A stretch of 64,000 nt of DNA from Parcubacteria group bacterium Gr01-1014_8 (GCA_007376385.1 VMGC01000002.1:96001-160000); one strand, 5' to 3'. Counted from the stretch's first letter, positions 3,874-49,243 are shown. Translations and numbers: made by a program. Notes: generated from the sequence alone by a model not told the origin.

Positions 3874-5160
3874 ATGAAGATCCACACTATACAGGCGCGA
3901 GAGATATTGGATTCACGGGGGAATCCGACAGTGGAAGCGGATGTGTATTTGGACGATGGAACAATGGGGCGTGCAGCGGTGCCGTCAGGAGCGTCTACGG
4001 GTGCACACGAAGCGCATGAACTTCGCGACGGAGATAAAAAACGTTATGGAGGGAAAGGCATTCTGAAGGTGGTTACGAATATAAAAGGAGAAATTTCTAA
4101 GGCGCTCATCGGCAAAAAAGCGGAACAGCGAGATATAGATAATGCTCTCATCAAACTTGATGGCACCGAAAATAAAAAGAGGCTTGGAGCAAATGCCATT
4201 CTTGCAGTCTCGCTCGCAACTGCTCACGCAGTCGCTCGCTCAAAGAAACAACACTTGTTCGAATATGTCCATGCTCTTTCTTCATCTCCTCGCAACATGG
4301 TGCTTCCTGTACCCCAGTGCAACGTGGTGAATGGTGGTGCGCACACAAACTGGGAATCGACCGACATACAGGAATTTATGCTCATGCCTATCGGGGCAAA
4401 GACCTTTCGTGAAGGTCTGCGGGCAATTACCGAAGTTTTCCACACACTAAAAGGTGTGTTGAAGGAAAAAGGCTACGGAACTACAGTGGGCGACGAAGGA
4501 GGCTTCGCACCAAAATTGAAAGGAAATGAGGAAGCGCTTACACTCATTGAAGAGGCAACTAAAAAAGCTGGTTACGCGCTCGGAAAAGATATAGTGTTCG
4601 CACTCGACTGTGCGGCGTCCGAACTTTTTGAAAATGGTTCCTATAAACTTCCGAAAGAGGGAAAAACCCTATCTTCCGCTGAAATGGCGGCATGGTATGG
4701 CGCGCTAAAAAAGAAGTACCCGATTGTTTCTATCGAAGACGGACTTGCGGAAGACGATTGGGACGGTTGGAAAAAACTCACTTCGTCGCTCGGAAAGAAT
4801 ACTCAGCTTGTTGGCGACGATTTGCTCGTAACGAACGTAAAATTTCTCGAGCGCGGTATCAAAGAAAAAGCTGCGAACTCGATACTGATCAAAGTGAATC
4901 AGATCGGTACGCTGTCAGAAACTGTTGATGCCGTAGATATGGCTCATAAAGCAGGCTGGACAGCCGTTATTTCCCATCGCTCGGGTGAGACGGAAGACAC
5001 AAGCATTTCGCATATTGTCGTCGGGCTTGGCACAGGACAGATAAAGACCGGCTCTGTCTCTCGCTCGGACAGAACCGCAAAATATAACGAGTTGCTCCGA
5101 ATTGAGGAAATCCTCGGTAAAAAAGCCATGTATGCTGGAGAAAAAGCCCTGAGATCATGA
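3874..5160 (+). CDS. eno: enolase (phosphopyruvate hydratase)
   Basis: [24 protein letters not shown]...[10 protein letters not shown]; start moved to internal MKIHT relative to track ORF 3817. Confidence 0.95.
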
Positions 5161-6671
5161 GCAGGAGAATAAAGCCGCTTGTATTGGTGGTGCTCGACGG
5201 CTGGGGGTATCGCGAAGACCCGGAACATAACGCAATTGCTGAAGCCAAGATCCCTTTCTTTGATTCGCTTTGGAAAAAGTATCCGCATAGTTTACTGACT
5301 GCGAGCGAGGAAAGCGTAGGACTCCCGGTAGGGCAGATGGGTAATAGCGAGGTGGGGCACATGACCATTGGTGCCGGCAAGGTCATTGATACGGATCTCG
5401 TGCGAATTACAAAAGCGATGCGAGGCGGAGAGTTCAGAGGCAATTCCGCGTTCAATGGATTGTTCCAGCACTGCCTGAGGCATAATTCGACACTGCATGT
5501 CATAGGGTTGGTGTCGACTGGGGGAGTGCATAGTCACATCGAGCATCTTTACGGGTTTCTGCGGGCTGCTAAGGACGCAGGCGTGAGCAATGTGGCGATT
5601 CACGCCATTACTGACGGGCGCGATACTCTGCCGAGAAGCGGCGCAGACTATCTTGTAGACCTCGAGAAAAATCTGAAAGAAATCGGCGTAGGCCGTATTG
5701 CCACGGTCTGCGGTCGCTTTTTCGCTATGGATAGAGATCAGAATTGGGACAGACTCGCACGGGCCGAAGCGGCAATGTTCAAGGGCGCTGCCCCGATGCG
5801 GACATCAAGGCCGTCAGATTTCCTTCGGGCACGCTATGCGGAGGGTACAATAGATGAGTTGCTGGAACCAATCGTCTGTACGGATCTTGAAGGCGGAGCG
5901 TGCACAATTCAAAAAAATGACGGGGTATTTATGTACAACTTCCGGGCAGATCGCGCGAGAATGTTGTCGAAGCGTATTGCGTCAATGTGCGATAAGGACA
6001 ACGTATTTCTCGTTACGATGACTGAATACGACAAGAATGTGAAAACCAATGTCGCATATCCTCCTGTCACCATAACAACTACGCTTGCGGCGGAGATATC
6101 GAAGGCGGGACTTTCTCAAGTGCACATTGCAGAAACGGAAAAATATGCGCATGCAACGTACTTTTTGAACGGCGGTCAGGAAAAACCCCATGATGGAGAG
6201 GAGCATGTACTCATAGAGAGCCGCAAAGACATAGCAACCCATGACATGGCACCGGAGATGCGTGCACGCGAAATAACTGATGCCGCGATAGAACGGATAC
6301 AAAAAGGCGTCGATTTTGTATTCATCAATTACGCAAACGTGGACATGGTGGGGCACACTGCAAACACAAAAGCAATAGTGAAGGCAGTCGAGACAGTCGA
6401 TTCAGAACTTAAAAGACTCGTTGAATCAGTACAGGGGGCAGGCGGCGCAGTATTTGTAACGGCAGATCACGGGAATGCAGAACAAAACTTTGATGTTGCA
6501 ACAGGCGAGAAGCATACAGCACACACCCTAAATGTTGTCCCGGCAATCCTCACAATTGACCGAGGCTTGCTTCGAGACGGGGGTCTTGCTGATGTGACGC
6601 CCACCATTCTTTCGCTCTTTGGATTGCACGTACCTAAAGTAATGACTGGTCAGAATCTCTACAGAAGTTAA
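5157..6671 (+). CDS. gpmI: 2,3-bisphosphoglycerate-independent phosphoglycerate mutase
   Basis: [10 protein letters not shown]...[15 protein letters not shown]... iPGM family; ATGA overlap with eno. Confidence 0.9.
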
Positions 6672-8154: not shown

Positions 8155-9153
8155 ATGCTTCTCATGGACGATTTCAAAGACAAGGCATATTTCAGCGACT
8201 CTATCTATTGGGTCGAAGTGGACCGCATAAAACCAAATCCATTCCAGCCTCGCAAAGAATTTGATGAGACGGCACTTGCGTCTCTTGCCGAATCTGTCCG
8301 TCAGTATGGCATTTTGCAGCCGCTTGTCGTAACACGAAAAGAGATCGAACGCCCCGGCGAAGGCATTTTCGTTGAATACGAGCTTATAGCTGGCGAGCGG
8401 CGACTGCGTGCGGCTAAACTTGCGGGACTCATTCAAGTGCCCGTGGTTGTAAGGCGTGCAGAAGACAGCGACAGAATGAAGCTTGAGCTCGCCATTATCG
8501 AGAATCTTCAGCGAGAAGACCTAAACGCGATAGATAGGGCAAAGGCGTTCAAACGGCTCGTAGACGAATTTGGTTTAAAGCACGGCGAGATAGGGAAGCG
8601 CGTCGGGAAAAGCCGGGAATACGTATCAAACACGCTTCGAATTCTTTCACTGCCGCAGGAGATGCAGGACGCGCTTCAGGCAGGTGAGATTACAGAGGGT
8701 CACACGAGACCTCTGTTGATGTTGATAGACAGACCAGAAGAACAGCGGACACTGTTCAAAGAAATAATCGCGCGCCGGCTGACCGTCCGCGACACGGAAC
8801 AATTAGCACGAAGAGTGGCCATAGAAAAGGTGCGGAAAACAGATCAGCTTTCGCCGGATCTCATGAACCTGGAGCGTCAGTTGACCGAACGATTGGGAAC
8901 GCGCGTACGTATCGAGAAAAAAGAACAAGGGGGAAAAGTCACGATAGATTTTTTCTCACCGGAAGACCTGGCGCATTTGTGTTTGGTCCTGGCGTCCCAA
9001 GAAAGAACGAAGGAAAAAGAAGAAAAAGAAACAGACATGCCAGAAGCGAGTGCAAAACCAGGTACACTGGCACAGACAGCTGAACCGGTCGTTACACACT
9101 CTACAGAAAGCCCGCCAGAAGATCTCTACTCAGTGAAAAACTTCACCGTTTAA
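8155..9153 (+). CDS. parB: ParB/Spo0J chromosome-partitioning protein
   Basis: IKPNPFQPRKEFDE...GILQPLVV...GERRLRAAKLAG. The true start is probably ATG 8164 (MDDFKDK), 7 nt after a TATAAT at 8151-8156. Confidence 0.85.
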   Translation: MLLMDDFKDKAYFSDSIYWVEVDRIKPNPFQPRKEFDETALASLAESVRQYGILQPLVVTRKEIERPGEGIFVEYELIAGERRLRAAKLAGLIQVPVVVRRAEDSDRMKLELAIIENLQREDLNAIDRAKAFKRLVDEFGLKHGEIGKRVGKSREYVSNTLRILSLPQEMQDALQAGEITEGHTRPLLMLIDRPEEQRTLFKEIIARRLTVRDTEQLARRVAIEKVRKTDQLSPDLMNLERQLTERLGTRVRIEKKEQGGKVTIDFFSPEDLAHLCLVLASQERTKEKEEKETDMPEASAKPGTLAQTAEPVVTHSTESPPEDLYSVKNFTV

Positions 9154-9179
9154 TATTGTTTTGCGGTCTTCATAAGGAA

Positions 9180-9213
9180 TACCATAATGGTGCCGGTCGG
9201 CACCATTATGGTA
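9180..9213. terminator. perfect 15-bp palindrome hairpin between convergent parB and rel (putative bidirectional terminator)
   Basis: TACCATAATGGTGCC-GGTC-GGCACCATTATGGTA. Confidence 0.5.
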
Positions 9214-9241
9214 CGAGTATAAAAAACGGCGTCACGATCAG

Positions 9242-10771
9242 TCAGGATTGTTTTTGTGCGGCGAGTGCCGCGCGGATCATCTTTTTTGCGAGAGTCGTTT
9301 TGGCGATATCCTGCCATTTGCGCGACGGCCTTGCAGAAGATTTCGTGATTATCTCGACCATATCGCCGTTTCGGAGAATACTGTCGAGTGATGCCATTTT
9401 TCCGTTCACCCGTGCGCCAGCCATTTTGTTTGCTATCTCGGAATGAATTGCATACGCGAAATCAATAGGTGTCGCAGCAAGAGGCAGGTCGATAACGTCT
9501 CCTTTTGGGGTGAATACGAATATACGATGGCTGAAAAAATCTGTCTTCAGATTTTCAAGATACTCGCCCGAACGGCCTTCCTGTTCATGTGCGTGCGCGA
9601 GCTCTTGCACCCAATCTGGAGCTGTGTGGCCGCTTTGTTCAGGAATTGTTTCGGGAAGTTTTTTTCTTCTGCCGGGGATGAATTGTTTTATCCACTCCAA
9701 GCTGCCGCCGCGGGAGCCCTCAACATATCCGAGCGCTTCTTTGTACGTGAGGTGGGACGCAATGCCGTATTGCGCCTCCCGATGCATGCTTTCTGTTCGT
9801 ATCTGTATCTCGAGCGCTCCGCCATCTCCCGTATAGACAGTCGTGTGAATACTCTGGTATCCGTTTGGTTTTGGGAACGCAATATAATCCTTTATTTTTC
9901 CCGGTACCGGTCGCCACTGCTTGTGGACAACACCGAGGACTGAATAGCAATCCGCAACAGTCGGAACGATGATGCGCAGAGCCAAAATATCGAATATCTT
10001 TCCCATTTCCCAATCTTTGCGGTCAAGTTTGCGAAATAGGCTGTACATGCCTTTCATTCGCGACTCGGTGCGGAATTCGCGAATGCCTGATTCAGCAAGT
10101 GCCCGCTTGAGGTCTTTTTCTGCTTTTTCAAGACGTTTCTCGGTCTCTTTCGTGCGTTCCTTCAAAAGTTCCCTAGTTTTCTCGTAATCTTCTGGATAGG
10201 CATAGGGAAATGCGGCATCTTCGAGGGCTGTTTTTGCGACGCTCATGCCGAATCGATCAGCAATAGGAGCGTATATTTCCAATGTCTCAAGGGCGATACG
10301 TTTTCTCTTGTGTTCTGGCACGTGTTCAAGTGTCGTCACATTGTGCAGCCTATCCATCAATTTAATGATGAGTACGCGAATGTCCTCGGCGGTTGCCGCA
10401 AAAAGCCTTCGAAGCGATTCAGTGTGACGCTCAAGTCCTCGATAGCGCAGCGCGCCAAGTTTCGTTACGCCGCGCACCAAAAACAATACCTCTTGGCCGA
10501 ATTCTTTTTCTATCGTTGCTGCAGAGACGCCAGCATCTTCCATCGAATCATGAAGAAGCCCGGCAGCTATCGTTTCCGCATCCATTCCAATTTCTGCTAG
10601 CGTGAAGCCGACTTCAGCAGGATGCAGAAAATATGGCTCGCCGGAATAACGCGTTTGGTCTTTGTGAGCATCTCTTGAGAATTCATACGCTTTGGAGATC
10701 ATGGAAACGTCCGCCGCTTCCTTCGACGTCATCGCAGACAATATCTCAGAGAGTGGGCGTATGTCGGCCAT
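9242..10771 (-). CDS. rel: (p)ppGpp synthetase/hydrolase, short RelA/SpoT-family protein (HD + synthetase + TGS, no ACT)
   Basis: HPAEVGFTLAEIGMD...GLLHDSMED (HD) and RFGMS...YQSIHTTV (synthetase) motifs; 509 aa. Confidence 0.9.
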   Translation of the reverse strand: MADIRPLSEILSAMTSKEAADVSMISKAYEFSRDAHKDQTRYSGEPYFLHPAEVGFTLAEIGMDAETIAAGLLHDSMEDAGVSAATIEKEFGQEVLFLVRGVTKLGALRYRGLERHTESLRRLFAATAEDIRVLIIKLMDRLHNVTTLEHVPEHKRKRIALETLEIYAPIADRFGMSVAKTALEDAAFPYAYPEDYEKTRELLKERTKETEKRLEKAEKDLKRALAESGIREFRTESRMKGMYSLFRKLDRKDWEMGKIFDILALRIIVPTVADCYSVLGVVHKQWRPVPGKIKDYIAFPKPNGYQSIHTTVYTGDGGALEIQIRTESMHREAQYGIASHLTYKEALGYVEGSRGGSLEWIKQFIPGRRKKLPETIPEQSGHTAPDWVQELAHAHEQEGRSGEYLENLKTDFFSHRIFVFTPKGDVIDLPLAATPIDFAYAIHSEIANKMAGARVNGKMASLDSILRNGDMVEIITKSSARPSRKWQDIAKTTLAKKMIRAALAAQKQS

Positions 10772-13181: not shown

Positions 13182-13334
13182 TGGACGCAAGCAAGGGGAA
13201 GGAGGTGCGCAGTGTACAGGATCTTCTTGCTGGTTCGGTTGCTCTCCTTTTCGGGGGAAGTTACTTCAACGTGGGAGATCGATCTTCCGCCGAACGCTGA
13301 GTTTCCGCTCTGCATGCCTCCATGCAGCGCGTCC
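13182..13334 (+). ncRNA. candidate structured RNA in the dprA-topA intergenic region (strand and identity uncertain)
   Basis: Closing helix GGACGC...GCGTCC enclosing about 140 nt with several internal hairpins (GGGAGATCGATCTTCC, CTGCATGCCTCCATGCAG). Weak TTGACT/TATAT promoter-like elements upstream. Confidence 0.25.
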
Positions 13335-14194
13335 TAAATCGCACGAACCAATCCAAGCGTTTCCTGAATTAACCCTTTTATCTCCATCGTTGAAAGCAGA
13401 ATATTTGCTTCAGAAATAGACATTTCTAACTGAGATAGTAGTTCGTCGCGTGAGCAGGGCGAGGATAGTATTTCCAGCACTTTGCGCTCATCTGAAGACA
13501 AATCTTCTCGCAATGACGGACTTACGATGTCGGTCATTTCGATGCCGAGCGCTTTCAAGATGTCCTCGGGTTCCGTTACTGGCGTTGCGCCGAGTTTTAA
13601 AAATTGATGCGTTCCGCGGCTTTCGGCGCTGAAGATAGAGCCCGGAACGACTAACAACTCCCGATTATATTCGGTCGTAAGCCGCGCGGTGATAAGGGAG
13701 CCAGAACGCTCTTTTGCCTCGATGACCAGAGTCGCCAGGCATAATCCGGCCATGATGCGATTCCGCTGTGGAAATGTGTGATCGGCGGCTTTTTGCTTCG
13801 GCTCAAATTCTGACAACAAAGCTCCGCCCGCTTTTAAGATTTCTCGAGCCAGCCCAACATGCGCTCTAGGATAGATGACGTCCCAATCGAGACCAGACCC
13901 AGGGACTGCAACAGTGGGGAGTCCGGCGGAAAGGGCCGCTTTGTGAGCACATGCGTCTATGCCATAGGCGAGCCCCGACACGATGACGATCGGGTAGCCG
14001 CGGAGACCCCCTATTAGATGTTCGCACGCCTGTCGTCCGTAGGAACTTGCGGCGCGAGAGCCGACCACTGCGAGCCATACGTCGTCGTAACGGGGAAGCT
14101 CTCCCCGGACATACAATTGTTTCGGCGGGTCCGATATTTCGGCTAATAGAGGGTGGAAATGAGCTGCTTTGAGTTGGCGTAACGTGTCACTCAT
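13334..14194 (-). CDS. dprA: DNA-processing protein DprA/Smf (short form)
   Basis: LAVVGSRAASSYGRQ...IVSGLAYGIDACAHKAAL Rossmann-like DprA core; start set at MSDTLRQ. Confidence 0.85.
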   Translation of the reverse strand: MSDTLRQLKAAHFHPLLAEISDPPKQLYVRGELPRYDDVWLAVVGSRAASSYGRQACEHLIGGLRGYPIVIVSGLAYGIDACAHKAALSAGLPTVAVPGSGLDWDVIYPRAHVGLAREILKAGGALLSEFEPKQKAADHTFPQRNRIMAGLCLATLVIEAKERSGSLITARLTTEYNRELLVVPGSIFSAESRGTHQFLKLGATPVTEPEDILKALGIEMTDIVSPSLREDLSSDERKVLEILSSPCSRDELLSQLEMSISEANILLSTMEIKGLIQETLGLVRAI

Positions 14195-14208
14195 TGTACT
14201 ATCTATTG

Positions 14209-14276
14209 TATACCCCGTGAGATAAACAGGTCTGACCTTCAACAGGAAAGCGGATGTGCATATCTCATGGGGTATG
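14209..14276. promoter_or_regulatory. inverted pair of 16-nt motif (TATACCCCGTGAGATA 14209-14224; TATCTCATGGGGTATG 14261-14276) between divergent dprA and serS
   Basis: Same motif as at 7.5, 18.2 and 32.6 kb. Confidence 0.6.
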
Positions 14277-14306
14277 CCGTTATTTCCGGCGCTTCCCTTT
14301 AGACCT

Positions 14307-15578
14307 ATGCTTGACATCAAATTCATCCGAGAAAACAAAGATATTGTTGCGGCAGGCGCGCGGAAGAAGCATATAGATGTCGATATAGACAGACTTCTTC
14401 AGCTTGACGATAAACGCAGAGAGCTTCAACAGGCGCTGGAAGCTAAGAGGGCCGAGCAGAACAATGCATCAAATGCGATAGCAGGCGCAAAAAATGATAG
14501 AGAGCGGCAGGAGCTTATTGCTCGAATGCAGCAAGTCAAAGAGACGATGAAAATGGAAGAAACATCACTTGAGGAAATATTAAAAGAATGGCGAGCCTTG
14601 ATGGTGCGGGTTCCGAACGTTCCGGATATCTCAGTCCCTGATGGTGACAGCGATGCGGATAATAAGGAAGTAAAGAAGTGGGGAGAGGCAGCTGAATTTG
14701 AGTTTGAGCTGAAAAATCATTCCGAATTGATGTTGATGCATGACATGGCCGATCTTGAGCGAGGCGCAAAAGTTGCAGGCTTCAGGGGATATTTCTTGAA
14801 AAACGATGGGGCACGATTGGTGTGGGCCTTAGAAAGATTCGTACAAGATAGATTCATGAACCGCGAGGGGTTTGTTCCTGTCGTTGTTCCTTCCATGGTT
14901 CGTCGAGAGCCTTTTATCGGCACCGGATATTTGCCCCAGAGCGAAGAGGATCTGTATAAAACGCAAGATGGTGACTATCTTGCGGGTACCGCGGAAGTTG
15001 CCGCTATGGGATATTACATGGACGAAATAGTTGATAAAAGATTGCTGCCGATAAAATTCTTTGCATTCTCTCCGTGTTTTCGCCGTGAAGCGGGGAGTCA
15101 CGGCAAAGACACGAAAGGACTCTTTCGGATCCATGAGTTCGTGAAATACGAGCAGGTAGTCTTATGCGAGGCGAATCATGAAGAATCCGTGCGTCACCAC
15201 GAGGAGTTAACGGCGAATTCGGAAGCTCTCCTGCAGGAATTGAAATTGCCGTATCGCGTTGTGCTGAACTGCGGGGGGGACATAGGTCTCGGGCAAGTAA
15301 AAAAGTACGACATCGAAGCATGGATGCCGTCGGAGAAAAAATATCGCGAGACGCATTCATCATCGTATTTTCATGATTTCCAATCTCGGCGATTGAATAT
15401 TCGTTATCGAGATGATGACGGGACGCTTAAATTCGTCCATTCTTTGAATAACACAGCGCTCGCGATGCCGCGCATCCTCTGCCAAATAGTCGAGAACAAC
15501 CAACACTCTGACGGTTCAATATCAATTCCGGAGGTGCTCCGGGGCTACGTGGGAAAAGATGTGATATCCAAGCACTAA
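14307..15578 (+). CDS. serS: seryl-tRNA synthetase
   Basis: MLDIKFIRENKDIV N-terminus and class II aaRS core; start moved to MLDIKF. Confidence 0.95.
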   Translation: MLDIKFIRENKDIVAAGARKKHIDVDIDRLLQLDDKRRELQQALEAKRAEQNNASNAIAGAKNDRERQELIARMQQVKETMKMEETSLEEILKEWRALMVRVPNVPDISVPDGDSDADNKEVKKWGEAAEFEFELKNHSELMLMHDMADLERGAKVAGFRGYFLKNDGARLVWALERFVQDRFMNREGFVPVVVPSMVRREPFIGTGYLPQSEEDLYKTQDGDYLAGTAEVAAMGYYMDEIVDKRLLPIKFFAFSPCFRREAGSHGKDTKGLFRIHEFVKYEQVVLCEANHEESVRHHEELTANSEALLQELKLPYRVVLNCGGDIGLGQVKKYDIEAWMPSEKKYRETHSSSYFHDFQSRRLNIRYRDDDGTLKFVHSLNNTALAMPRILCQIVENNQHSDGSISIPEVLRGYVGKDVISKH

Positions 15579-41460: not shown

Positions 41461-42450
41461 ATGCAAAAAGAGATAGGAATGATCGGACTTGGAAAAATGG
41501 GAGGGAACATGGCGCGACAGCTCGTGGAAAAAGGATGGAATGTGCACGGTATGGATGCGGACCCTGCGACAACACAAAAACTCGGAAAGGAGGGTATACA
41601 AGGAGCGTACTCGATACACGAACTTGTCTCGAAACTGAAAGCCCCGCGTGTGGTATGGCTCATGGTACCCGCAGGGAAACCGGAAGACGATCTGCTGTTT
41701 GGCAATGACCGACATCATGACCGACATCGTAAGTCGAACACATTGACCGACTTACGATATCGGTCACGGTCATCCGTAAAAGATGCGGGGCTTGTACGTT
41801 TACTTTCACGGGGCGACGTTATCATTGATGGGGGTAATTCTTATTACAAAGATTCAATATCGCGCGCGAAGAAAGTCGCAACATTCGGCATCAAATTCAT
41901 TGACGTTGGATTTTCTGGCGGCCCCGCGGGGGCTCGAAACGGAGGCTGTCTCATGATCGGCGGGGATGAAAGCTCGTTCAAGCGGCTCGAACCGTTGTTC
42001 AAAGACCTTGCGCGCGACAATGGGTATCAATTCTTCAAAGGTGTTGGAGCGGGCCATTTTGTAAAGATGGTCCACAACGGCATCGAATACGGCATGATGC
42101 AGGCGTTGGGGGAAGGTTTTGCGATGTTAAAAAAGACACCGTTCAAACTGGATCTCACGCGTGTTGCGGATATATACAATAATGGAAGCGTTATCGAGTC
42201 GCGCTTGGTAGGATGGATGAAGAAAGCGTTTCAAGAACATGGAGAAGACTTGAAGCAGGTCTCAGGTTCGGTTGGGCACACTGGCGAGGGCGAATGGACG
42301 GCAAAGACTGCGCGAGAAATGAAAATTCCGGCAAAAATAATTGGGGAATCGTACAAGTTTCGCGTTCAGTCAAAGAAAAAGCCGTCGTTTACCGGCAAAG
42401 TCGTGTCCGCATTGCGTGGACAGTTCGGAGGACATAATATTAAAGAGTAA
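41461..42450 (+). CDS. gnd: 6-phosphogluconate dehydrogenase (short YqeC-like form) carrying an in-frame insertion
   Basis: IGMIGLGKMGGNMA...VWLMVPAG...GDVIIDGGNS...HNGIEYG. About 23 extra residues between PAG and GD are encoded by a repeat-rich segment. Confidence 0.8.
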   Translation: MQKEIGMIGLGKMGGNMARQLVEKGWNVHGMDADPATTQKLGKEGIQGAYSIHELVSKLKAPRVVWLMVPAGKPEDDLLFGNDRHHDRHRKSNTLTDLRYRSRSSVKDAGLVRLLSRGDVIIDGGNSYYKDSISRAKKVATFGIKFIDVGFSGGPAGARNGGCLMIGGDESSFKRLEPLFKDLARDNGYQFFKGVGAGHFVKMVHNGIEYGMMQALGEGFAMLKKTPFKLDLTRVADIYNNGSVIESRLVGWMKKAFQEHGEDLKQVSGSVGHTGEGEWTAKTAREMKIPAKIIGESYKFRVQSKKKPSFTGKVVSALRGQFGGHNIKE

Positions 42451-44445: not shown

Positions 44446-44534
44446 TCGCATTTGAAACCTAATTTTTCAGCAATATCGCATGATACCTTAGGTGTGCCGA
44501 CCGGCACACCTAAGGTATTCAGGTTTTTGGCGGA

Positions 44535-45182
44535 CTACAATAAAGAATGCCCGTGAAGGACGATAGGAAGAATATCTTCGATTGTGTACACGATGTGGTC
44601 CGGTTCGTACGCGACGAGATCAGCGTGGGGTCCGTATGAAATACCAATAGTCCCGACACCGGCGGCTTTTCCCGCTTGGATGTCGACTGGCGTATCGCCG
44701 ACAAACCACGCGTCTTTCGCCTCTACATCTACCGCTCGGAGGGCTGCAGACACGTGTTCCGGGTCTGGCTTGGCTCGAGTGACATCATCTTGAGACAGCA
44801 AGGCATCAAACATGCTCACTATTTTTACGTGTTGCATGGTGGCGATGGACGATTTTCTCATACGATTTGTCACTGTTGCCAGCTTGATGCCCTTGTCTTT
44901 AAGCGTCTGCAGCGTTTCTTTTACGTTTGGAAATATCATTACTAACTGAAGATTTTTTTCTTGAAAATCGCGATGCGCTTGCATAAGCCGCAGGGCATCT
45001 TTTTCCGGGAACAGCATTTCATAGTTCTCTCTCAGCGTTTTACCCTGGCTTGCGAGAAGCACTGCAGTTGCCCGTGAAATAGGCGCTCCTTCTTCAGTGG
45101 TAACATGCTCGTAAGCACGAATAATGTACTCGTACGTATCAAGCAGAGTCCCATCGACATCAAAAAGTACTGCTTTTGTCAC
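44535..45182 (-). CDS. HAD-superfamily hydrolase (phosphatase)
   Basis: LFDVDGTLLDT motif I; later motifs present. Confidence 0.75.
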   Translation of the reverse strand: MTKAVLFDVDGTLLDTYEYIIRAYEHVTTEEGAPISRATAVLLASQGKTLRENYEMLFPEKDALRLMQAHRDFQEKNLQLVMIFPNVKETLQTLKDKGIKLATVTNRMRKSSIATMQHVKIVSMFDALLSQDDVTRAKPDPEHVSAALRAVDVEAKDAWFVGDTPVDIQAGKAAGVGTIGISYGPHADLVAYEPDHIVYTIEDILPIVLHGHSLL

Positions 45183-45296
45183 TGGAAGATTATACCTAAC
45201 TTCAGGAGAACTCGTATTTCTCTCACTTTGACAGGAGTCATATATCTCCGTATGATGTTTTTTTCGCCCCTATAATAAGGCACACTTCCTAGGCAC

Positions 45297-47522
45297 ATGA
45301 GGCATATATTCTTAATCGTGCTTGCTGTCGCTTTTGCTGTATCTCTTGCAGCTTCAGTTTTTACGTTGATGCAAGTGAACAAAGAGACAGATGAGTTGTC
45401 GAAGAAGCTCAGGGAGAGGACGCTGCTTCTTGCGGATGGTCTTGCAGAGTCCGCGGCTCCTGCGTACGCGCGATATGCCACGAGTACGCTGGAAAAGTTG
45501 GCGAACACCTTTACGAATCGCGAGCGTCTCATCGGCCTTGCATTTTATGACACGCGCGGTAATAAAATTGCCGGTTCGAGCGGCGTCACAGATGAAATGC
45601 TGAAAAATGCGCCGATTCTCGATACATTCAATAGCACCGAGCCTGACGACGCTTTTGCAATTACCGAAGGGACGAGAAAATATTATTTCGCGCAACCACT
45701 CCACTCTGACGATGCCTATATTGGCTCGCTTGTACTTGTGCAGGATGCCAGTGATATCGATGTGGCAATGAGCAGGATATGGCGAGACACATTTCTGAAA
45801 CTTTTCGTATATTTTCTCCTTTTTGCCGTCGCCATCGCAGCCCTTGTCTACTTTGTGCTTTTCAAACCGCTATCGAATTTAGCTGAATCTATCCGCCAGG
45901 CGCGAATGAATAAAGATGCGCGTGCTCCTCAACCCTCGCACCACAATTTTTTTCTGCAACCTCTTGCGATGGAAGTCTCGAAACTTGCGTCTTCACTCGC
46001 GCAGGCACGAACTGCTGCAAGCGAAGAGGCGCGTATGCGCCTTGAAAAGATTGACACCCCTTGGACGGAGGAGAGGCTAAAGGAATTCATAAAGGCGTAT
46101 CTCAAGGATAGGCCTATCTATGTCGTTTCGAATCGAGAGCCCTACATACACTCCAAGGATCGCGGAGAGGTCACCTACTCGGTGCCTGCGAGCGGCATGG
46201 TGACAGCGCTTGAGTCTGTCATGGCGGCCTGCGGAGGGGAATGGCTCGCTCATGGCAGCGGAAATGCTGACAAAGAAATGGTCGATGCGGAGAGCAAGAT
46301 CCGTGTCCCACCAGATGAGCCGAAATATACCTTGAAGCGTATTTGGCTGAATCCAAAAGAGGTCAAGGGCTATTATGTCGGTTTCTCGAACGAGGCTCTG
46401 TGGCCGCTGTGTCATATAGCGCATACGAGGCCGACCTTCAGAAAGGAAGACTGGCTGATGTACAAGCGCGTGAACGGCAAGTTTGCTGAGGCGCTTCTTG
46501 CGGAATTAAAAGGCGTCGAGCGCCCCATAGTGTTGATACAAGATTTTCATCTTTCTCTTTTGCCGCGGATGATAAAGGAGTCGCGTCCGGACGCACAGGT
46601 CGGTCTTTTTTGGCACATACCCTGGCCGTCCGCAGAAGGCTTCAGTATCTGTCCTTGGAGAAAAGAGATACTGCAGGGAATGCTCGGCGCGGATATAATC
46701 GGTTTTCATACGCAGCAGTTCTGCAATAATTTCCTCGAAACTGTCGGAAAAGAGATCGAATCGCTTATCGATCTGGAGCAATTTGCTGTTACGAGCGATG
46801 AGCACACATCATTCATCAAGCCATTTCCTATAAGTATTTCGTTCACTGACGCAATGGAGGGAAAGACGTCGATAGCGCCTGATCGCGCTGCTCTTGAAGC
46901 GATGGACATTCGAACAGAGTTCGTCGGACTTGGCGTGGACAGGCTCGACTATACGAAGGGAATTCTTGAGCGATTCAGAGGGATCGAATTTTTTCTTGAC
47001 GCTCATCCGGATTTTTATAAACGATTTACGTTCTTGCAGGTCGCACCTCCGAGCCGCGAGGAATCGGAAAAGTATCGGGATTATGCAGTTGCCGTCGAGG
47101 CAGAAGCAGCCCGAGTGAATGCAAAATTCAGAAAGAATGGATGGCAGCCCATTCGTTTTGAAAAAAGGCATTTTTCGCACTCGGAACTTGTGCCGCTCTA
47201 CCAAACAGCGAACTTTTGTCTTGTGACATCTCTGCACGACGGCATGAACTTGGTCGCCAAAGAATACGTGGCAGCAAGAGATGATGAAGCAGGAGCCCTC
47301 ATCTTGAGCAAATTCACCGGCGCTTCTCGCGATTTCAATCGCGGTGCGCTTATCGTCAATCCCTATAGCGCCGAAGAGGTCTCGGAAGCTATCCACCGTG
47401 CTCTCGTCATGCCCGCCACTGAGCAGCATCGTAGAATGAGATCCATGCGAACATCAATACGAGACTACAATGTGTATCGCTGGGCGGCTGAATTTATAAA
47501 AGCAGTTGCAGCGCTCCGATAA
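45297..47522 (+). CDS. otsA: trehalose-6-phosphate synthase-like glycosyltransferase (GT20) fused to an N-terminal two-TM sensor-like domain
   Basis: C-terminal 480 aa match the OtsA core (PIYVVSNREPY...WHIPWPS...DIIGFHT...). N-terminal 250 aa have TM1 - ~150-aa extracytoplasmic domain - TM2 - coiled linker. Confidence 0.75.
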   Translation: MRHIFLIVLAVAFAVSLAASVFTLMQVNKETDELSKKLRERTLLLADGLAESAAPAYARYATSTLEKLANTFTNRERLIGLAFYDTRGNKIAGSSGVTDEMLKNAPILDTFNSTEPDDAFAITEGTRKYYFAQPLHSDDAYIGSLVLVQDASDIDVAMSRIWRDTFLKLFVYFLLFAVAIAALVYFVLFKPLSNLAESIRQARMNKDARAPQPSHHNFFLQPLAMEVSKLASSLAQARTAASEEARMRLEKIDTPWTEERLKEFIKAYLKDRPIYVVSNREPYIHSKDRGEVTYSVPASGMVTALESVMAACGGEWLAHGSGNADKEMVDAESKIRVPPDEPKYTLKRIWLNPKEVKGYYVGFSNEALWPLCHIAHTRPTFRKEDWLMYKRVNGKFAEALLAELKGVERPIVLIQDFHLSLLPRMIKESRPDAQVGLFWHIPWPSAEGFSICPWRKEILQGMLGADIIGFHTQQFCNNFLETVGKEIESLIDLEQFAVTSDEHTSFIKPFPISISFTDAMEGKTSIAPDRAALEAMDIRTEFVGLGVDRLDYTKGILERFRGIEFFLDAHPDFYKRFTFLQVAPPSREESEKYRDYAVAVEAEAARVNAKFRKNGWQPIRFEKRHFSHSELVPLYQTANFCLVTSLHDGMNLVAKEYVAARDDEAGALILSKFTGASRDFNRGALIVNPYSAEEVSEAIHRALVMPATEQHRRMRSMRTSIRDYNVYRWAAEFIKAVAALR

Positions 47523-47523
47523 T

Positions 47524-48300
47524 ATGAGGTATTCCGAGTCGGTGCTTCCGGTGATGAGGGCGATCAGAGACATGCTTCTCCCAGAGTGGGGCGTCGCGAA
47601 AGCCGTCCATCAAAAAACAGCGTCCTCATGGAGCGTCGTTACGGCGCTCGATATCGAAATAGAAAAATTTGTGAGCGCCGAATTGGCGCATCTCCACCCT
47701 GATATTGAATTTGTCGGAGAAGAGCAAGGGGGGAATAGAAGTGCGAAGAAATTCTGGTTGATGGACCCGATAGACGGAACGGCTCACTTTATCCGCGGCC
47801 TGCCGTTCTGCACGTCGATGCTTGCATTGGTCGACAGAGGGCATGTCGTTTTTTCTGCCATATACGATTTTATACACGACGAAATGTATTTTGCTGATAA
47901 GGGGAAAGGAGCGTTCTGCAACGAAAAGAAGCTTTCAGTGAGTTCGCGAACGTTAAAAGATTCTTTCGTCTCGTTCGAGACGGATATTGCAATCGAGAAG
48001 AATGCTAATTTGCGACAAAAAATGCTCTCGCAAACGAACGTAATGACGACATTTTGTGCAGGCTGGGAATTTGCAATGGTCGCATCAGGAAAAATTGATG
48101 CGCGAATATGTCTCGACCCGTTTGGCCAAGATTATGATTTCGCTCCTGGTACGCTATTGGTAATGGAAGCAGGAGGCGTCGTCACGAACCTTGATTCGCA
48201 CGAATTTGACTATACGAATTTGGATCTCATCGCAGCAAATCCGCTTGTGTATAAAGACCTTACGGAGGGAGAATCAGCATTATTCCCTCTCGGGCGCTAG
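47524..48300 (+). CDS. inositol-monophosphatase-family phosphatase
   Basis: WLMDPIDGTAHFIRG and WEFAMVASG motifs. Confidence 0.75.
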   Translation: MRYSESVLPVMRAIRDMLLPEWGVAKAVHQKTASSWSVVTALDIEIEKFVSAELAHLHPDIEFVGEEQGGNRSAKKFWLMDPIDGTAHFIRGLPFCTSMLALVDRGHVVFSAIYDFIHDEMYFADKGKGAFCNEKKLSVSSRTLKDSFVSFETDIAIEKNANLRQKMLSQTNVMTTFCAGWEFAMVASGKIDARICLDPFGQDYDFAPGTLLVMEAGGVVTNLDSHEFDYTNLDLIAANPLVYKDLTEGESALFPLGR

Positions 48301-48409
48301 CTATAGAGGGATGTGGACAATTGATTAACTTCTCTGCCTGCAGGGGACTATACTTGCAGGAAGGGTCGATTATACATATTCACTCTATTTTTATATGAAG
48401 TGGTTACAC

Positions 48410-48613
48410 ATGGTCTCCTATATCCTCGTATTTGCTGGAAGCTTGAACTGGCTGCTTTTGGCGCTTACTGGATGGGAAATAGGCTCTCTGTTCGGAGGTA
48501 TGACAGCTCCAATATCGCAGGTGGTCTATGTGCTAGTTGGACTTGCAGCCATCTATCTCATCGCGACCCATAGGAAATACTGCAAAGAGTGCGCAGCAGG
48601 TGCGCCAATGTGA
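48410..48613 (+). CDS. DUF378-family small membrane protein
   Basis: Two TM helices with the NWLLL..G pattern. Confidence 0.55.
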   Translation: MVSYILVFAGSLNWLLLALTGWEIGSLFGGMTAPISQVVYVLVGLAAIYLIATHRKYCKECAAGAPM

Positions 48614-48808: not shown

Positions 48809-49243
48809 ATGGAAGACAGGCCCTTTGTCGGTATTGGCGTAACGATACTTAAAGATGGAAAAATTCTCCTCGGCAAAAGAGTATCAACGTATGGGACCGG
48901 AGAATATCAAACGCCTGGCGGACATCTTGAGCCTAAAGAAGCTTTTGAGGCATGTGCGCGGCGAGAAACCTTGGAGGAGTGCGGACTCGAAATAGGCTCA
49001 ATCCGTTTTCAATTTGTAGCAAATGCCGTAGGGTATGGTCTCGTGCATTACGTTCATATTGGTTTGATAACGGAATGGAAGGCAGGTGAACCTAAAAATC
49101 TTGAACCTACAAAATGCGAAGGATGGGATTGGTACTCTCTTGACGCATTGCCGGAGCCTCTTTTTGTATACACGAAATGGTCTATAGAGGCACATCAAAC
49201 AGGACTCAATTATTTCGATAGTGAGGCCCGACCAGCGAAATAA
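48809..49243 (+). CDS. NUDIX hydrolase
   Basis: Nudix box G.LEPKEAFEACARRETLEECGL. Confidence 0.75.
   Translation: MEDRPFVGIGVTILKDGKILLGKRVSTYGTGEYQTPGGHLEPKEAFEACARRETLEECGLEIGSIRFQFVANAVGYGLVHYVHIGLITEWKAGEPKNLEPTKCEGWDWYSLDALPEPLFVYTKWSIEAHQTGLNYFDSEARPAK

What the first reader, a model, noticed from the sequence alone, without database searches (positions are those of the whole stretch)
44535..48300. Transmembrane sensor domain fused to trehalose-6-phosphate synthase, flanked by two phosphatases
The otsA-like gene (741 aa) has an N-terminal module: TM1, a ~150-aa extracytoplasmic domain, TM2, and a coiled-coil linker. This is laid out like a sensor histidine kinase input, fused directly to a complete GT20 catalytic domain instead of a kinase.

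There is no otsB. Instead an IMPase-family phosphatase overlaps its 3' end and a HAD phosphatase lies just upstream on the opposite strand.

This suggests direct, signal-gated synthesis of a compatible solute or signalling sugar-phosphate (trehalose-6-P or glucosylglycerol-P) at the membrane. I am not aware of this as a standard described architecture.
Basis: partly seen in the sequence, partly recalled or inferred. Interest (0 to 1): 0.5.

Follow-up and report, generated by a model that had tools for sequence, protein, structure and literature searches.

The report
Receptor-like membrane trehalose-6-phosphate synthase
A candidate-phyla-radiation bacterium makes its trehalose-6-phosphate synthase as a membrane protein with an outward-facing sensor domain like that of a cell-wall-sensing kinase, a design shared by well over a hundred related species but apparently never described, which suggests that an outside signal could switch protective-sugar synthesis on directly.

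Summary
ORF 45297-47522 (+) encodes 741 aa: TM1, a ~140-aa extracytoplasmic domain, TM2, a helix-loop-helix, a very conserved linker, then a complete GT20 domain with every checked OtsA catalytic residue.

- **Not a misjoin.** More than 120 full-length homologues and 126 species genomes carry the same fusion. All titles that name a lineage name Patescibacteria, apart from some doubtful placeholder labels.
- **Product.** In 40 of 73 informative related loci a true otsB directly follows the gene, so the product is trehalose-6-P rather than glucosylglycerol-P.
- **IMPase.** The window belongs to a subset where an IMPase-family gene sits in the otsB slot. Two pairs of close relatives show an exact OtsB/IMPase swap between conserved flanks, so the IMPase is the likely T6P phosphatase. 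Its likely start is ATG 47524, one base after the stop, so there is no overlap.
- **HAD.** It is not a conserved partner.
- **Portability.** The same sensor module also occurs on a GCS2-family ligase.

Signal gating is plausible but untested. No paper describing the architecture was found. Verdict: a new variant of a known kind, of moderate to high interest.

The parts
45228..45256 (+). Promoter-like site TTGACA-17-TATGAT (11 of 12), 40 nt upstream of the ATG of the fusion gene, in the 114-nt divergent intergenic region
   Evidence: consensus scan only; 6 sites found against 4.6 expected in the region, so suggestive, not proof; sequence
45297..47522 (+). Whole gene: receptor-type trehalose-6-phosphate synthase, 741 aa. 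The ATG start agrees with the homologue consensus MKQxLxI...; the deposited annotation starts 7 aa later.
45306..45368 (+). TM1 (aa ~4-24), continuous with the long N-terminal helix of the sensor domain
   Evidence: hydropathy; AF2 helix 2-58
45372..45791 (+). Extracytoplasmic sCache/PDC-like sensor domain (aa ~26-165), WalK-type
45792..45893 (+). TM2 (aa ~166-199)
   Evidence: hydropathy; AF2 helix 152-203
45894..46055 (+). HAMP-like helix-connector-helix (aa 200-253). The second helix (221-253) carries the nearly invariant SLxQARxAASEEARMRLEK motif with a heptad pattern.
   Evidence: AF2 (pLDDT only 52-67). Pfam HAMP is not hit in the window protein, but reaches 24.6 bits (cut-off 25) in divergent member P0278 and E 0.03 in P0329. 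Conservation.
46056..46115 (+). Linker helix (aa 254-273, DTPWTEERLKEFIKAYLKDRP). The most conserved stretch of the protein, leading directly into strand 1 of the GT20 domain and the phosphate-binding Arg280.
   Evidence: mean pairwise identity 0.79 against 0.66 for GT20 and 0.44 for the sensor; the WTAERL motif is kept even in distant members P0278 and P0329
46116..47519 (+). GT20 catalytic domain (aa 274-741), complete
   Evidence: Pfam PF00982 E 3e-114 over 4-471 of 473. Solved Tps1/OtsA structures E 1e-79 to 1e-62 over the whole domain. R280, G300, Y360, W369, D416, H440, R549, K554, R587, D648, E656 correspond to E. coli R9, G22, Y76, W85, D130, H154, R262, K267, R300, D361, E369.
47524..48300 (+). 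IMPase-family phosphatase, 258 aa from ATG 47524 (1 nt after the stop of the synthase). Probable stand-in for OtsB as trehalose-6-phosphate phosphatase.
   Evidence: Pfam PF00459 E 9e-46. DPIDGT, GEE and YDFAPG motifs are present. Start. Same position in 9 related loci, never together with OtsB. In-situ swaps with OtsB.
44535..45182 (-). HAD-IA hydrolase (PpaX / phosphoglycolate-phosphatase-like), divergent neighbour. Probably not part of the system.
   Evidence: Adjacency is not conserved: an orthologue is seen only in the closest relative, 2.3 kb away. The HAD next to an IMPase in L086 is only 25% identical.
44482..44519 (.). 17-bp-stem hairpin between the convergent aldolase and HAD genes. 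It marks the end of the upstream G6PD-6PGD-GlpX-FBA block.

Best explanation
The gene encodes a genuine trehalose-6-phosphate synthase built as a transmembrane receptor.

**Architecture.** A WalK-type single-Cache (PDC) domain faces outward between two membrane helices. TM2 runs into a degenerate HAMP-like helix-loop-helix and a highly conserved coiled helix and linker. That linker feeds straight into the acceptor-binding N-terminal half of a cytoplasmic GT20 domain.

**Shown.**
- The domain order.
- The fold and sequence relationship of the sensor to WalK.
- The intact active site.
- Conservation of the fusion across Patescibacteria.
- The usual pairing with otsB.

**Inferred.**
- The protein is probably a dimer, like other Cache-HAMP receptors.
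- Binding of an extracytoplasmic ligand, or an envelope change, is probably passed through TM2 and the conserved linker to change GT20 activity. An outside signal would then control trehalose-6-P synthesis without transcription.
- In this genome and a subset of relatives, the co-transcribed IMPase-family phosphatase has taken the place of OtsB. It probably dephosphorylates trehalose-6-P to trehalose.
- The G6P substrate can come from the adjacent gluconeogenesis and pentose-phosphate genes.
For: **Enzyme identity.**
- Pfam GT20 is full length.
- The best NCBIfam models are T6P synthases (473 and 425 bits) against 298 bits for GG-P synthase.
- Solved Tps1/OtsA structures match at E down to 7e-79.
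- All 11 checked OtsA catalytic or substrate residues are conserved, and 9 of them are invariant in 55 homologues.
- A Pfam-confirmed or tblastn-detected OtsB lies directly downstream in 40 of 73 informative loci.

**Sensor.**
- AF2 gives pLDDT 80-90 for aa 1-170.
- The profile hits WalK sensor sequences at E 5e-5.
- Weak NCBIfam hits fall on the N-terminal halves of the CztS and CreC kinases.

**Coupling rather than simple anchoring.**
- Helix 221-253 and linker 254-273 are more conserved (pairwise identity 0.69 and 0.79) than the catalytic domain (0.66) or the sensor (0.44).
- The same module is also fused to a different enzyme, a GCS2-family ligase. This occurs in two independent contigs that are 72% identical to each other, while stand-alone versions of that ligase also exist.

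**IMPase as T6P phosphatase.**
- It lies immediately downstream in 9 loci plus the window, and nearby in 2 more, never together with OtsB.
- L013 against L012, and L050 against L065, show IMPase and OtsB in the same slot between flanks that are 80-89% identical at protein level.
- IMPase-linked and OtsB-linked synthases are interleaved in the tree.
- The metal and substrate motifs are intact.
Against: - No experiment or ligand is known, so gating is inferred from architecture alone.
- The window protein itself does not hit Pfam HAMP or reach any Cache gathering threshold.
- AF2 confidence is low (52-67) for aa 200-260, and only a monomer was modelled.
- The IMPase subfamily is widespread in Patescibacteria. 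In 5 of 5 sampled relatives at 53-58% identity it is not next to a GT20 gene. It is therefore a general phosphatase, not a dedicated partner.
- An otsB elsewhere in this genome cannot be excluded, because only 64 kb of a 200-kb contig were available.
- About 11 related loci have glycosyltransferase (GT4 or GT2) neighbours instead of a phosphatase. This would also fit a role in envelope glycoconjugate synthesis.
Confidence: 0.55

Rival explanations
1. The N-terminal module is only a membrane anchor or scaffold. It would place T6P/trehalose synthesis at the membrane, for example to feed an exporter or envelope glycoconjugate synthesis, or to dock to the wall or host surface. It would not transmit a signal to the catalytic domain.
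For: - No ligand is known.
- HAMP is not detectable in the window protein.
- GT4 genes lie directly downstream in 7 related loci, and convergent GT2 genes in 4.
- A sortase and cell-surface genes lie nearby in the closest relative.
Against: - An anchor would not need a folded Cache domain kept at 44% identity across phyla-level groups.
- It would not need a linker that is more conserved than the enzyme itself.
- Recruitment of the same module to an unrelated cytoplasmic ligase fits a regulatory input better.
- All structural neighbours are signal-input domains.
Confidence: 0.25
2. The IMPase-family gene is an unrelated housekeeping phosphatase (inositol-phosphate, histidinol-phosphate or fructose-bisphosphate type) that merely landed next to the synthase. 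Trehalose-6-P would be dephosphorylated by an OtsB encoded elsewhere, or by the HAD, or T6P itself would be the end product.
For: - The best NCBIfam hit is HisN, far below its cut-off (133 against 275 bits).
- The subfamily is common in Patescibacteria, with no GT20 neighbour in 5 of 5 sampled cases. Two of those five lie next to NUDIX genes, and the window and its closest relative also have a NUDIX gene downstream.
- The rest of the genome was not searchable.
Against: - There are two independent exact slot replacements of otsB by this IMPase between syntenic close relatives.
- It lies immediately downstream in 9 further loci with no OtsB within about 4.6 kb.
- A 1-nt spacing in the window implies co-transcription.
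- The HAD is not conserved with the synthase.
Confidence: 0.3
3. The GT20 domain makes a different sugar phosphate, such as glucosylglycerol-phosphate, and the IMPase removes that phosphate.
For: - GT20 also contains GG-P synthases.
- The protein is below the curated equivalog cut-offs of all GT20 models.
- The IMPase replaces OtsB in this clade.
Against: - T6P synthase models score 425-473 bits against 298 for GG-P synthase.
- The acceptor and phosphate-binding residues equivalent to R9, Y76 and R300 are unchanged. They do not differ between OtsB-linked and IMPase-linked members, which are up to 86% identical to each other.
- Most relatives are paired with a true trehalose-phosphatase.
Confidence: 0.06
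4. The fusion is an assembly or frameshift artefact that joins a membrane protein gene to otsA.
For: None found.
Against: - It is a single uninterrupted ORF.
- The same architecture occurs in the top 120 full-length hits from independent assemblies (56-100% identity) and in 126 species genomes.
- The junction region is the most conserved part of the protein.
Confidence: 0.01

Closest known systems
Soluble trehalose-6-phosphate synthases OtsA/Tps1 (GT20; E. coli 1GZ5/1UQU, Candida albicans 5HUT/5HUV, Mycobacterium 5JIJ)
   Same: The complete GT-B catalytic domain aligns end to end (E 1e-62 to 1e-79). The catalytic and substrate-binding residues are identical. Most relatives form the usual otsA-otsB gene pair.
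   Different: - It has about 273 extra N-terminal residues: two TM helices, an extracytoplasmic sensor domain, a HAMP-like segment and a conserved linker.
- It scores below the curated OtsA equivalog cut-off (425 against 565 bits).
- In this genome the partner phosphatase is IMPase-type, not OtsB.
WalK (VicK/YycG) sensor histidine kinase of Firmicutes, extracellular sCache domain (4YWZ, 5IS1, 7DUD)
   Different: The output is a glycosyltransferase, not a PAS-DHp-ATPase kinase, and no response regulator is involved. Sequence identity is only about 17%, and ligand specificity cannot be transferred.
Transmembrane receptor enzymes with Cache/CHASE-HAMP inputs (receptor-type diguanylate cyclases, adenylate cyclases, PP2C phosphatases, chemoreceptors)
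   Different: Known outputs make or destroy signalling molecules or phosphorylate proteins. Here the output is a primary metabolic enzyme that makes a stress-protectant precursor. No paper listing GT20 as an output domain was found.
Bifunctional TPS-TPP fusion proteins (NCBIfam PRK14501) and eukaryotic Tps complexes with regulatory subunits
   Same: The GT20 domain scores best against the PRK14501 model (473 bits, positions 4-461). Both are GT20 enzymes extended by additional domains.
   Different: Those carry a C-terminal HAD-type trehalose-phosphatase domain and are soluble. This protein has no phosphatase domain and instead carries an N-terminal membrane sensor.

Membership tests
GT20 / trehalose-6-phosphate synthase (OtsA) | Full-length match to Pfam PF00982 above the gathering score | tested here: met
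   382.7 bits against a cut-off of 32.5; aa 275-737 cover profile positions 4-471 of 473
GT20 / trehalose-6-phosphate synthase (OtsA) | Catalytic and substrate-binding residues of E. coli OtsA (R9, G22, Y76, W85, D130, H154, R262, K267, R300, D361, E369) | tested here: met
   All are conserved: R280, G300, Y360, W369, D416, H440, R549, K554, R587, D648, E656. Nine are invariant in 55 homologues.
GT20 / trehalose-6-phosphate synthase (OtsA) | Score above the curated NCBIfam equivalog cut-off (TIGR02400 / PRK14501) | tested here: not met
   425 against 564.85 bits, and 473.5 against 634 bits. These are still the two best GT20 models, so the shortfall reflects divergence and the missing TPP half, not another specificity.
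GT20 / trehalose-6-phosphate synthase (OtsA) | Genomic pairing with a trehalose-phosphatase (PF02358) | tested here: inconclusive
   Met in 40 of 73 informative related loci. Not met in the window, where no OtsB is found in 64 kb and an IMPase sits in the slot.
GT20 / trehalose-6-phosphate synthase (OtsA) | Formation of T6P from NDP-glucose and glucose-6-P | not testable with these tools
   Requires an enzyme assay
Glucosylglycerol-phosphate synthase (GgpS, TIGR02398) | Score above the equivalog cut-off, or best among the GT20 models | tested here: not met
   297.9 against 569 bits; ranked third behind both T6P synthase models
Cache / PDC extracytoplasmic sensor domains (WalK-type sCache) | PDC fold: a long N-terminal helix, then a five-stranded antiparallel sheet flanked by helices, located between two TM helices | tested here: met
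Cache / PDC extracytoplasmic sensor domains (WalK-type sCache) | Significant sequence match to a Cache family model | tested here: inconclusive
   The window protein has only sub-threshold hits (sCache_like E 0.03, dCache_3 E 0.05). Relatives reach dCache_1 at 29.9 bits (cut-off 45) and Cache_WalK at 26.0 bits (cut-off 27). The family profile hits WalK sensor chains at E 5e-5.
Cache / PDC extracytoplasmic sensor domains (WalK-type sCache) | Binds a ligand and transmits a signal | not testable with these tools
   Needs binding and activity assays
HAMP domain | Match to Pfam PF00672 | tested here: inconclusive
   There is no hit in the window protein or in any of 55 close homologues at E <= 1. 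Divergent members give 24.6 bits (cut-off 25; P0278) and E 0.03 (P0329) at the equivalent position.
HAMP domain | About 50-aa helix-connector-helix immediately after the last TM helix | tested here: met
Inositol monophosphatase family (downstream gene) | Pfam PF00459 above the cut-off, with the metal-binding motifs | tested here: met
   157 bits against a cut-off of 27; GEE, DPIDGT and YDFAPG are present
Trehalose-6-phosphate phosphatase function of the IMPase | Hydrolyses T6P | not testable with these tools
   There is only positional evidence: slot swaps with OtsB, and mutual exclusivity.

The most novel reading that the evidence does not exclude
Patescibacteria may use a portable WalK-like Cache-TM-HAMP-like module as a direct transmembrane switch on cytoplasmic biosynthetic enzymes. 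It is on trehalose-6-P synthase in well over a hundred species and on a GCS2-family ligase in at least two contigs.

An envelope-, host- or osmolarity-derived signal would then control stress-protectant synthesis with no kinase, second messenger or transcription factor. In parallel, a general IMPase-family phosphatase would have repeatedly displaced OtsB as the trehalose-6-phosphate phosphatase.
Probability: 0.4. Interest if true: 0.8.

Novelty: new variant of a known kind. Interest (0 to 1): 0.6.

Why it matters
- **A new kind of receptor output.** Receptor-type enzymes are known for signalling outputs such as kinases, cyclases and phosphatases. A receptor whose output is a primary metabolic glycosyltransferase would extend that principle to direct, transcription-free control of a compatible solute.
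- **An experimental handle on unculturable bacteria.** The family is conserved across a huge, mostly uncultured radiation with tiny genomes and few regulators. It therefore offers a concrete, testable view of how these cells read their surroundings or their host.
- **Better pathway calls.** The OtsB/IMPase slot swaps point to an unrecognised trehalose-6-phosphate phosphatase. This would change how 'incomplete' trehalose pathways are scored in metagenome-assembled genomes.

Tried and rejected
- **HAMP by sequence.** There was no Pfam HAMP hit in the window protein or in 55 homologues. Only divergent members come near the threshold, so HAMP is reported as 'HAMP-like'. One of the five sequences was a consensus-like string typed by hand and is not used as evidence.
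- **HAD as pathway partner.** Rejected, because adjacency is not conserved and the HAD beside an IMPase in L086 is only 25% identical.
- **GG-P synthase reading.** Rejected on model scores and otsB pairing.
- **IMPase as a dedicated partner.** Tested from the IMPase side: 0 of 5 sampled relatives sit next to GT20. The claim is therefore limited to 'a general phosphatase recruited into the otsB slot'.
- **Foldseek against AFDB50.** This was meant to map the taxonomic spread, but the library was unavailable.
- **Literature.** Searches for the architecture, and for IMPase-type T6P phosphatases, found nothing relevant. CPR papers only list otsA or trehalose as osmoprotectant genes (PMC5220378, PMC11608272).
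- **RNA and tRNA scans.** They found nothing in the region.
- **Taxon labels.** Labels such as 'uncultured Gammaproteobacteria' or 'Saccharibacteria' on some MAG records were not trusted as evidence for spread outside Patescibacteria.


Full report
**1. What is in the sequence**

The region holds three genes.
- A HAD hydrolase at 44535..45182 (-).
- A 741-aa ORF at 45297..47522 (+).
- An IMPase-family ORF listed from TTG 47506 to 48300 (+).

Pfam places a full-length Glyco_transf_20 domain at aa 275-737 of the long ORF (E 3e-114). It finds nothing above threshold in the first 274 residues. Hydropathy gives exactly two hydrophobic segments, aa ~4-24 and ~166-199.

The window comes from 'Parcubacteria group bacterium Gr01-1014_8'. 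The deposited protein is 100% identical and is annotated simply as trehalose 6-phosphate synthase.

Upstream on the + strand lie G6PD, a 6PGD-like dehydrogenase, GlpX FBPase and class I aldolase. That block ends in a 17-bp-stem hairpin at 44482-44519. A near-consensus promoter-like site (TTGACA-17-TATGAT) sits at 45228-45256, 40 nt before the ATG.

The synthase stop codon TAA (47520-47522) is followed after one base by ATG 47524. The deposited IMPase is 258 aa and most homologues are ~257 aa. The real start is therefore almost certainly 47524. The two genes are translationally close but do not overlap.

**2. The fusion is real and widespread**

- The N-terminal 275 aa alone retrieve 35 proteins, mostly fragments, several of which run on into GT20.
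- The full-length protein retrieves more than 120 full-length homologues of ~735-765 aa. They cover 96-100% of the query, at 56-69% identity apart from the deposited protein itself. Those that carry a source name are labelled Kaiser-, Doudna-, Taylor-, Nomura- or Magasanikbacteria, or more generally Parcubacteria or Patescibacteria group bacterium.
- A scan of one genome per species with the motif ASEEAR[ML]RL found 126 genomes. These include Microgenomates lineages (Davies-, Gottesman-, Levy- and Curtissbacteria) and Peribacteria.
- A profile of the N-terminal module hits 1893 cluster representatives at E <= 1e-3 and 140 at E <= 1e-30. Many of these are fragments.

A misjoin is excluded.

**3. 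The catalytic domain**

Solved Tps1/OtsA structures align over the whole domain, with E from 7e-79 to 4e-62. An alignment with E. coli OtsA, taken from NC_000913, shows the following residues retained:

| E. coli OtsA | Window protein |
|---|---|
| R9 | R280 |
| G22 | G300 |
| Y76 | Y360 |
| W85 | W369 |
| D130 | D416 |
| H154 | H440 |
| R262 | R549 |
| K267 | K554 |
| R300 | R587 |
| D361 | D648 |
| E369 | E656 |

Nine of these are invariant in 55 homologues.

NCBIfam ranks the T6P synthase models first (473.5 and 425 bits) and GG-P synthase third (297.9 bits). All three are below their equivalog cut-offs.

**4. The N-terminal module**

AlphaFold2 models were made for the full length (pLDDT 83) and for the N-terminal 275 aa (pLDDT 79). 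Both give the same elements.
- Helix 2-58, which is TM1 running into a long periplasmic helix.
- Helix 62-72.
- Strands 78-84 and 90-93.
- Helices 99-112.
- Strands 117-123, 126-137 and 140-150.
- Helix 152-203, which includes TM2.
- Loop 204-220.
- Helix 221-253.
- Helix 258-270.

Pfam gives consistent sub-threshold Cache hits in relatives:
- dCache_1 in 19 of 55.
- Cache_WalK in 11 of 55.
- sCache_3_2 in 10 of 55.

Pfam HAMP is not hit in the window protein or in any of the 55 homologues. At the equivalent position, the divergent two-sensor member P0278 scores 24.6 bits against a cut-off of 25, and P0329 gives E 0.03. I therefore call this segment HAMP-like.

Mean pairwise identity by region is shown below.

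| Region | Mean pairwise identity |
|---|---|
| TM1 | 0.37 |
| Sensor domain | 0.44 |
| TM2 | 0.40 |
| aa 201-220 | 0.28 |
| Helix 221-253 | 0.69 |
| Linker 254-273 | 0.79 |
| GT20 domain | 0.66 |

The junction (SLxQARxAASEEARMRLEKLDTPWTAERLKEF) is therefore the most constrained part of the protein. Its WTAERL core survives even in the distant members.

**5. Neighbourhood across relatives**

Of the 80 fetched loci, 73 have usable downstream sequence. tblastn and Pfam give the following.
- **OtsB.** Directly downstream in 40 loci, and within 4 kb in 3 more.
- **IMPase.** Directly downstream in 9 loci (L005, L007, L013, L014, L015, L025, L041, L050, L055), and nearby in 2 (L033, L009).
- **OtsB and IMPase together.** Never.
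- **GT4 glycosyltransferase.** Downstream in 7 loci.
- **MGH1/GH63-like hydrolase.** Downstream in 2 loci.
- **Convergent GT2.** In 4 loci.
- **TreT.** Divergent upstream in 2 loci.

Gene calls with Pfam for P0061 and P0107 show GT20 followed by Trehalose_PPase. The closest relative, P0037, shows GT20 followed by IMPase.

In a neighbour-joining tree the IMPase-linked genes lie in one half of the family, but they are interleaved with OtsB-linked ones.

Two pairs are decisive (with Pfam identities).
- **L013 and L012.** They share flanks. The synthase is 86% identical and the downstream genes 89%. L013 has the IMPase (8449-9180) where L012 has OtsB (8305-8994).
- **L050 and L065.** They show the same swap, IMPase at 8220-8984 against OtsB at 8249-8983. 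Synteny resumes at 8992 and 8988.

This is the signature of non-orthologous displacement within one functional slot.

There is a caveat. The IMPase subfamily is common in Patescibacteria, and 5 of 5 sampled relatives have no GT20 neighbour. It looks like a general phosphatase that has been recruited, not a dedicated one.

The HAD is orthologous only in the closest relative. There it follows the aldolase and is separated from the synthase by four genes. I do not count it as part of the system.

**6. The module is portable**

Among the profile hits, P0303 (690 aa) carries the same TM1-Cache-TM2-helix-loop-helix module (E 1e-55). It is followed by a GCS2-family (glutamate-cysteine-ligase-like) domain instead of GT20.

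An independent 316-kb metagenome contig (L091) encodes a 72%-identical full-length copy. Stand-alone versions of the ligase, 444-461 aa long, also exist. The window's N-terminus aligns to L091 at 33% identity over aa 1-206, E 1e-26.

A module that is grafted onto two unrelated cytoplasmic enzymes at the same junction behaves like an input module, not a family-specific anchor.

**7. Mechanism**

Shown:
- Domain order.
- Sensor homology.
- An intact active site.
- Conservation pattern.
- Operon partners.

Inferred:
- Topology is N-in, sensor-out, C-in. The enzyme needs cytoplasmic nucleotide sugar, and positive charges follow TM2.
- The protein dimerises, as other Cache-HAMP receptors do.
- Signal-dependent movement of TM2 is passed through the HAMP-like segment and the Ala-rich heptad helix 221-253 to the linker helix. 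That helix leads directly into strand 1 and Arg280 of the acceptor site. It would so modulate the domain closure or acceptor binding that GT-B enzymes need.
- T6P is then dephosphorylated by the co-transcribed IMPase.

The nature of the signal is open. [quoted passage not shown] The product suggests osmotic or desiccation cues.

**8. Comparison and novelty**

Every part is known: GT20, sCache, a HAMP-like transducer and IMPase. The logic matches receptor-type cyclases and kinases. The combination, with a primary metabolic glycosyltransferase as the receptor output, was not found in the searchable literature. CPR papers mention trehalose genes only as osmoprotectant markers (PMC5220378; PMC11608272). 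An IMPase-type T6P phosphatase was not found either.

I rate this a new variant of a known kind. It is solid as an observation, plausible but untested as a mechanism, and of moderate to high interest.

Noticed in passing
L089:3373-5445 (P0303) and L091:2992-5064: The same TM1-Cache-TM2-helix-loop-helix module is fused to a GCS2-family (glutamate-cysteine-ligase-like) enzyme instead of GT20. It occurs in two independent contigs that are 72% identical. Stand-alone versions of that ligase exist in L092-L095.
   Followed up: partly
L012/L013 and L050/L065, about 8220-9430 in each locus: Between close relatives with conserved flanks, OtsB and an IMPase-family gene swap exactly in the slot downstream of the synthase.
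   Followed up: yes
L090:1968-4709 (P0278, 913 aa); also P0329: P0278 is a variant of the fusion with two tandem sensor domains and a nearly canonical HAMP (24.6 bits). Its neighbours (ABC/FtsX, glycine-cleavage T, amino-acid oxidase) look unlike typical CPR contexts. P0329 is R/A-rich. The architecture may therefore exist outside Patescibacteria.
   Followed up: no
window 41707-41784, within the 6PGD-like gene 41461..42450 (+): A 78-nt in-frame insertion (26 aa) is absent from the 72%-identical orthologue. It is palindromic (19-nt arms, 95% complementary) with a tandem ATGACCGACATC.
   Followed up: partly
window 13508-13542, inside ORF 13334..14338 (-): This is a second copy of the ~30-nt palindromic core seen in the 6PGD insertion (0 matches expected by chance). 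It suggests a small palindromic repeat element that sits inside coding regions.
   Followed up: partly
L036, L039, L040, L046, L054, L067, L076 (downstream of the synthase); L060, L083: In 7 related loci a ~380-aa GT4 glycosyltransferase follows the synthase instead of a phosphatase. In 2 loci an MGH1/GH63-like glycoside hydrolase follows. These hint at further processing or turnover of the product. L013 and L039 come from the same MAG, so some genomes carry two paralogous fusions.
   Followed up: partly
window 48809-49243 (NUDIX) and 48395-48613 (72-aa membrane ORF); L085, L002: IMPase-family genes of this subfamily lie next to NUDIX hydrolase genes in several genomes: the window, its closest relative, L085 and a JGI contig. 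The NUDIX proteins are only 23% identical between contexts, so no orthologous pairing was shown.
   Followed up: partly
L052 (= L003) 4511-5773 and L063 2893-4140: In two Doudnabacteria-like genomes a TreT-type trehalose synthase is divergently adjacent to the sensor-OtsA-OtsB pair, so two trehalose routes are clustered.
   Followed up: no
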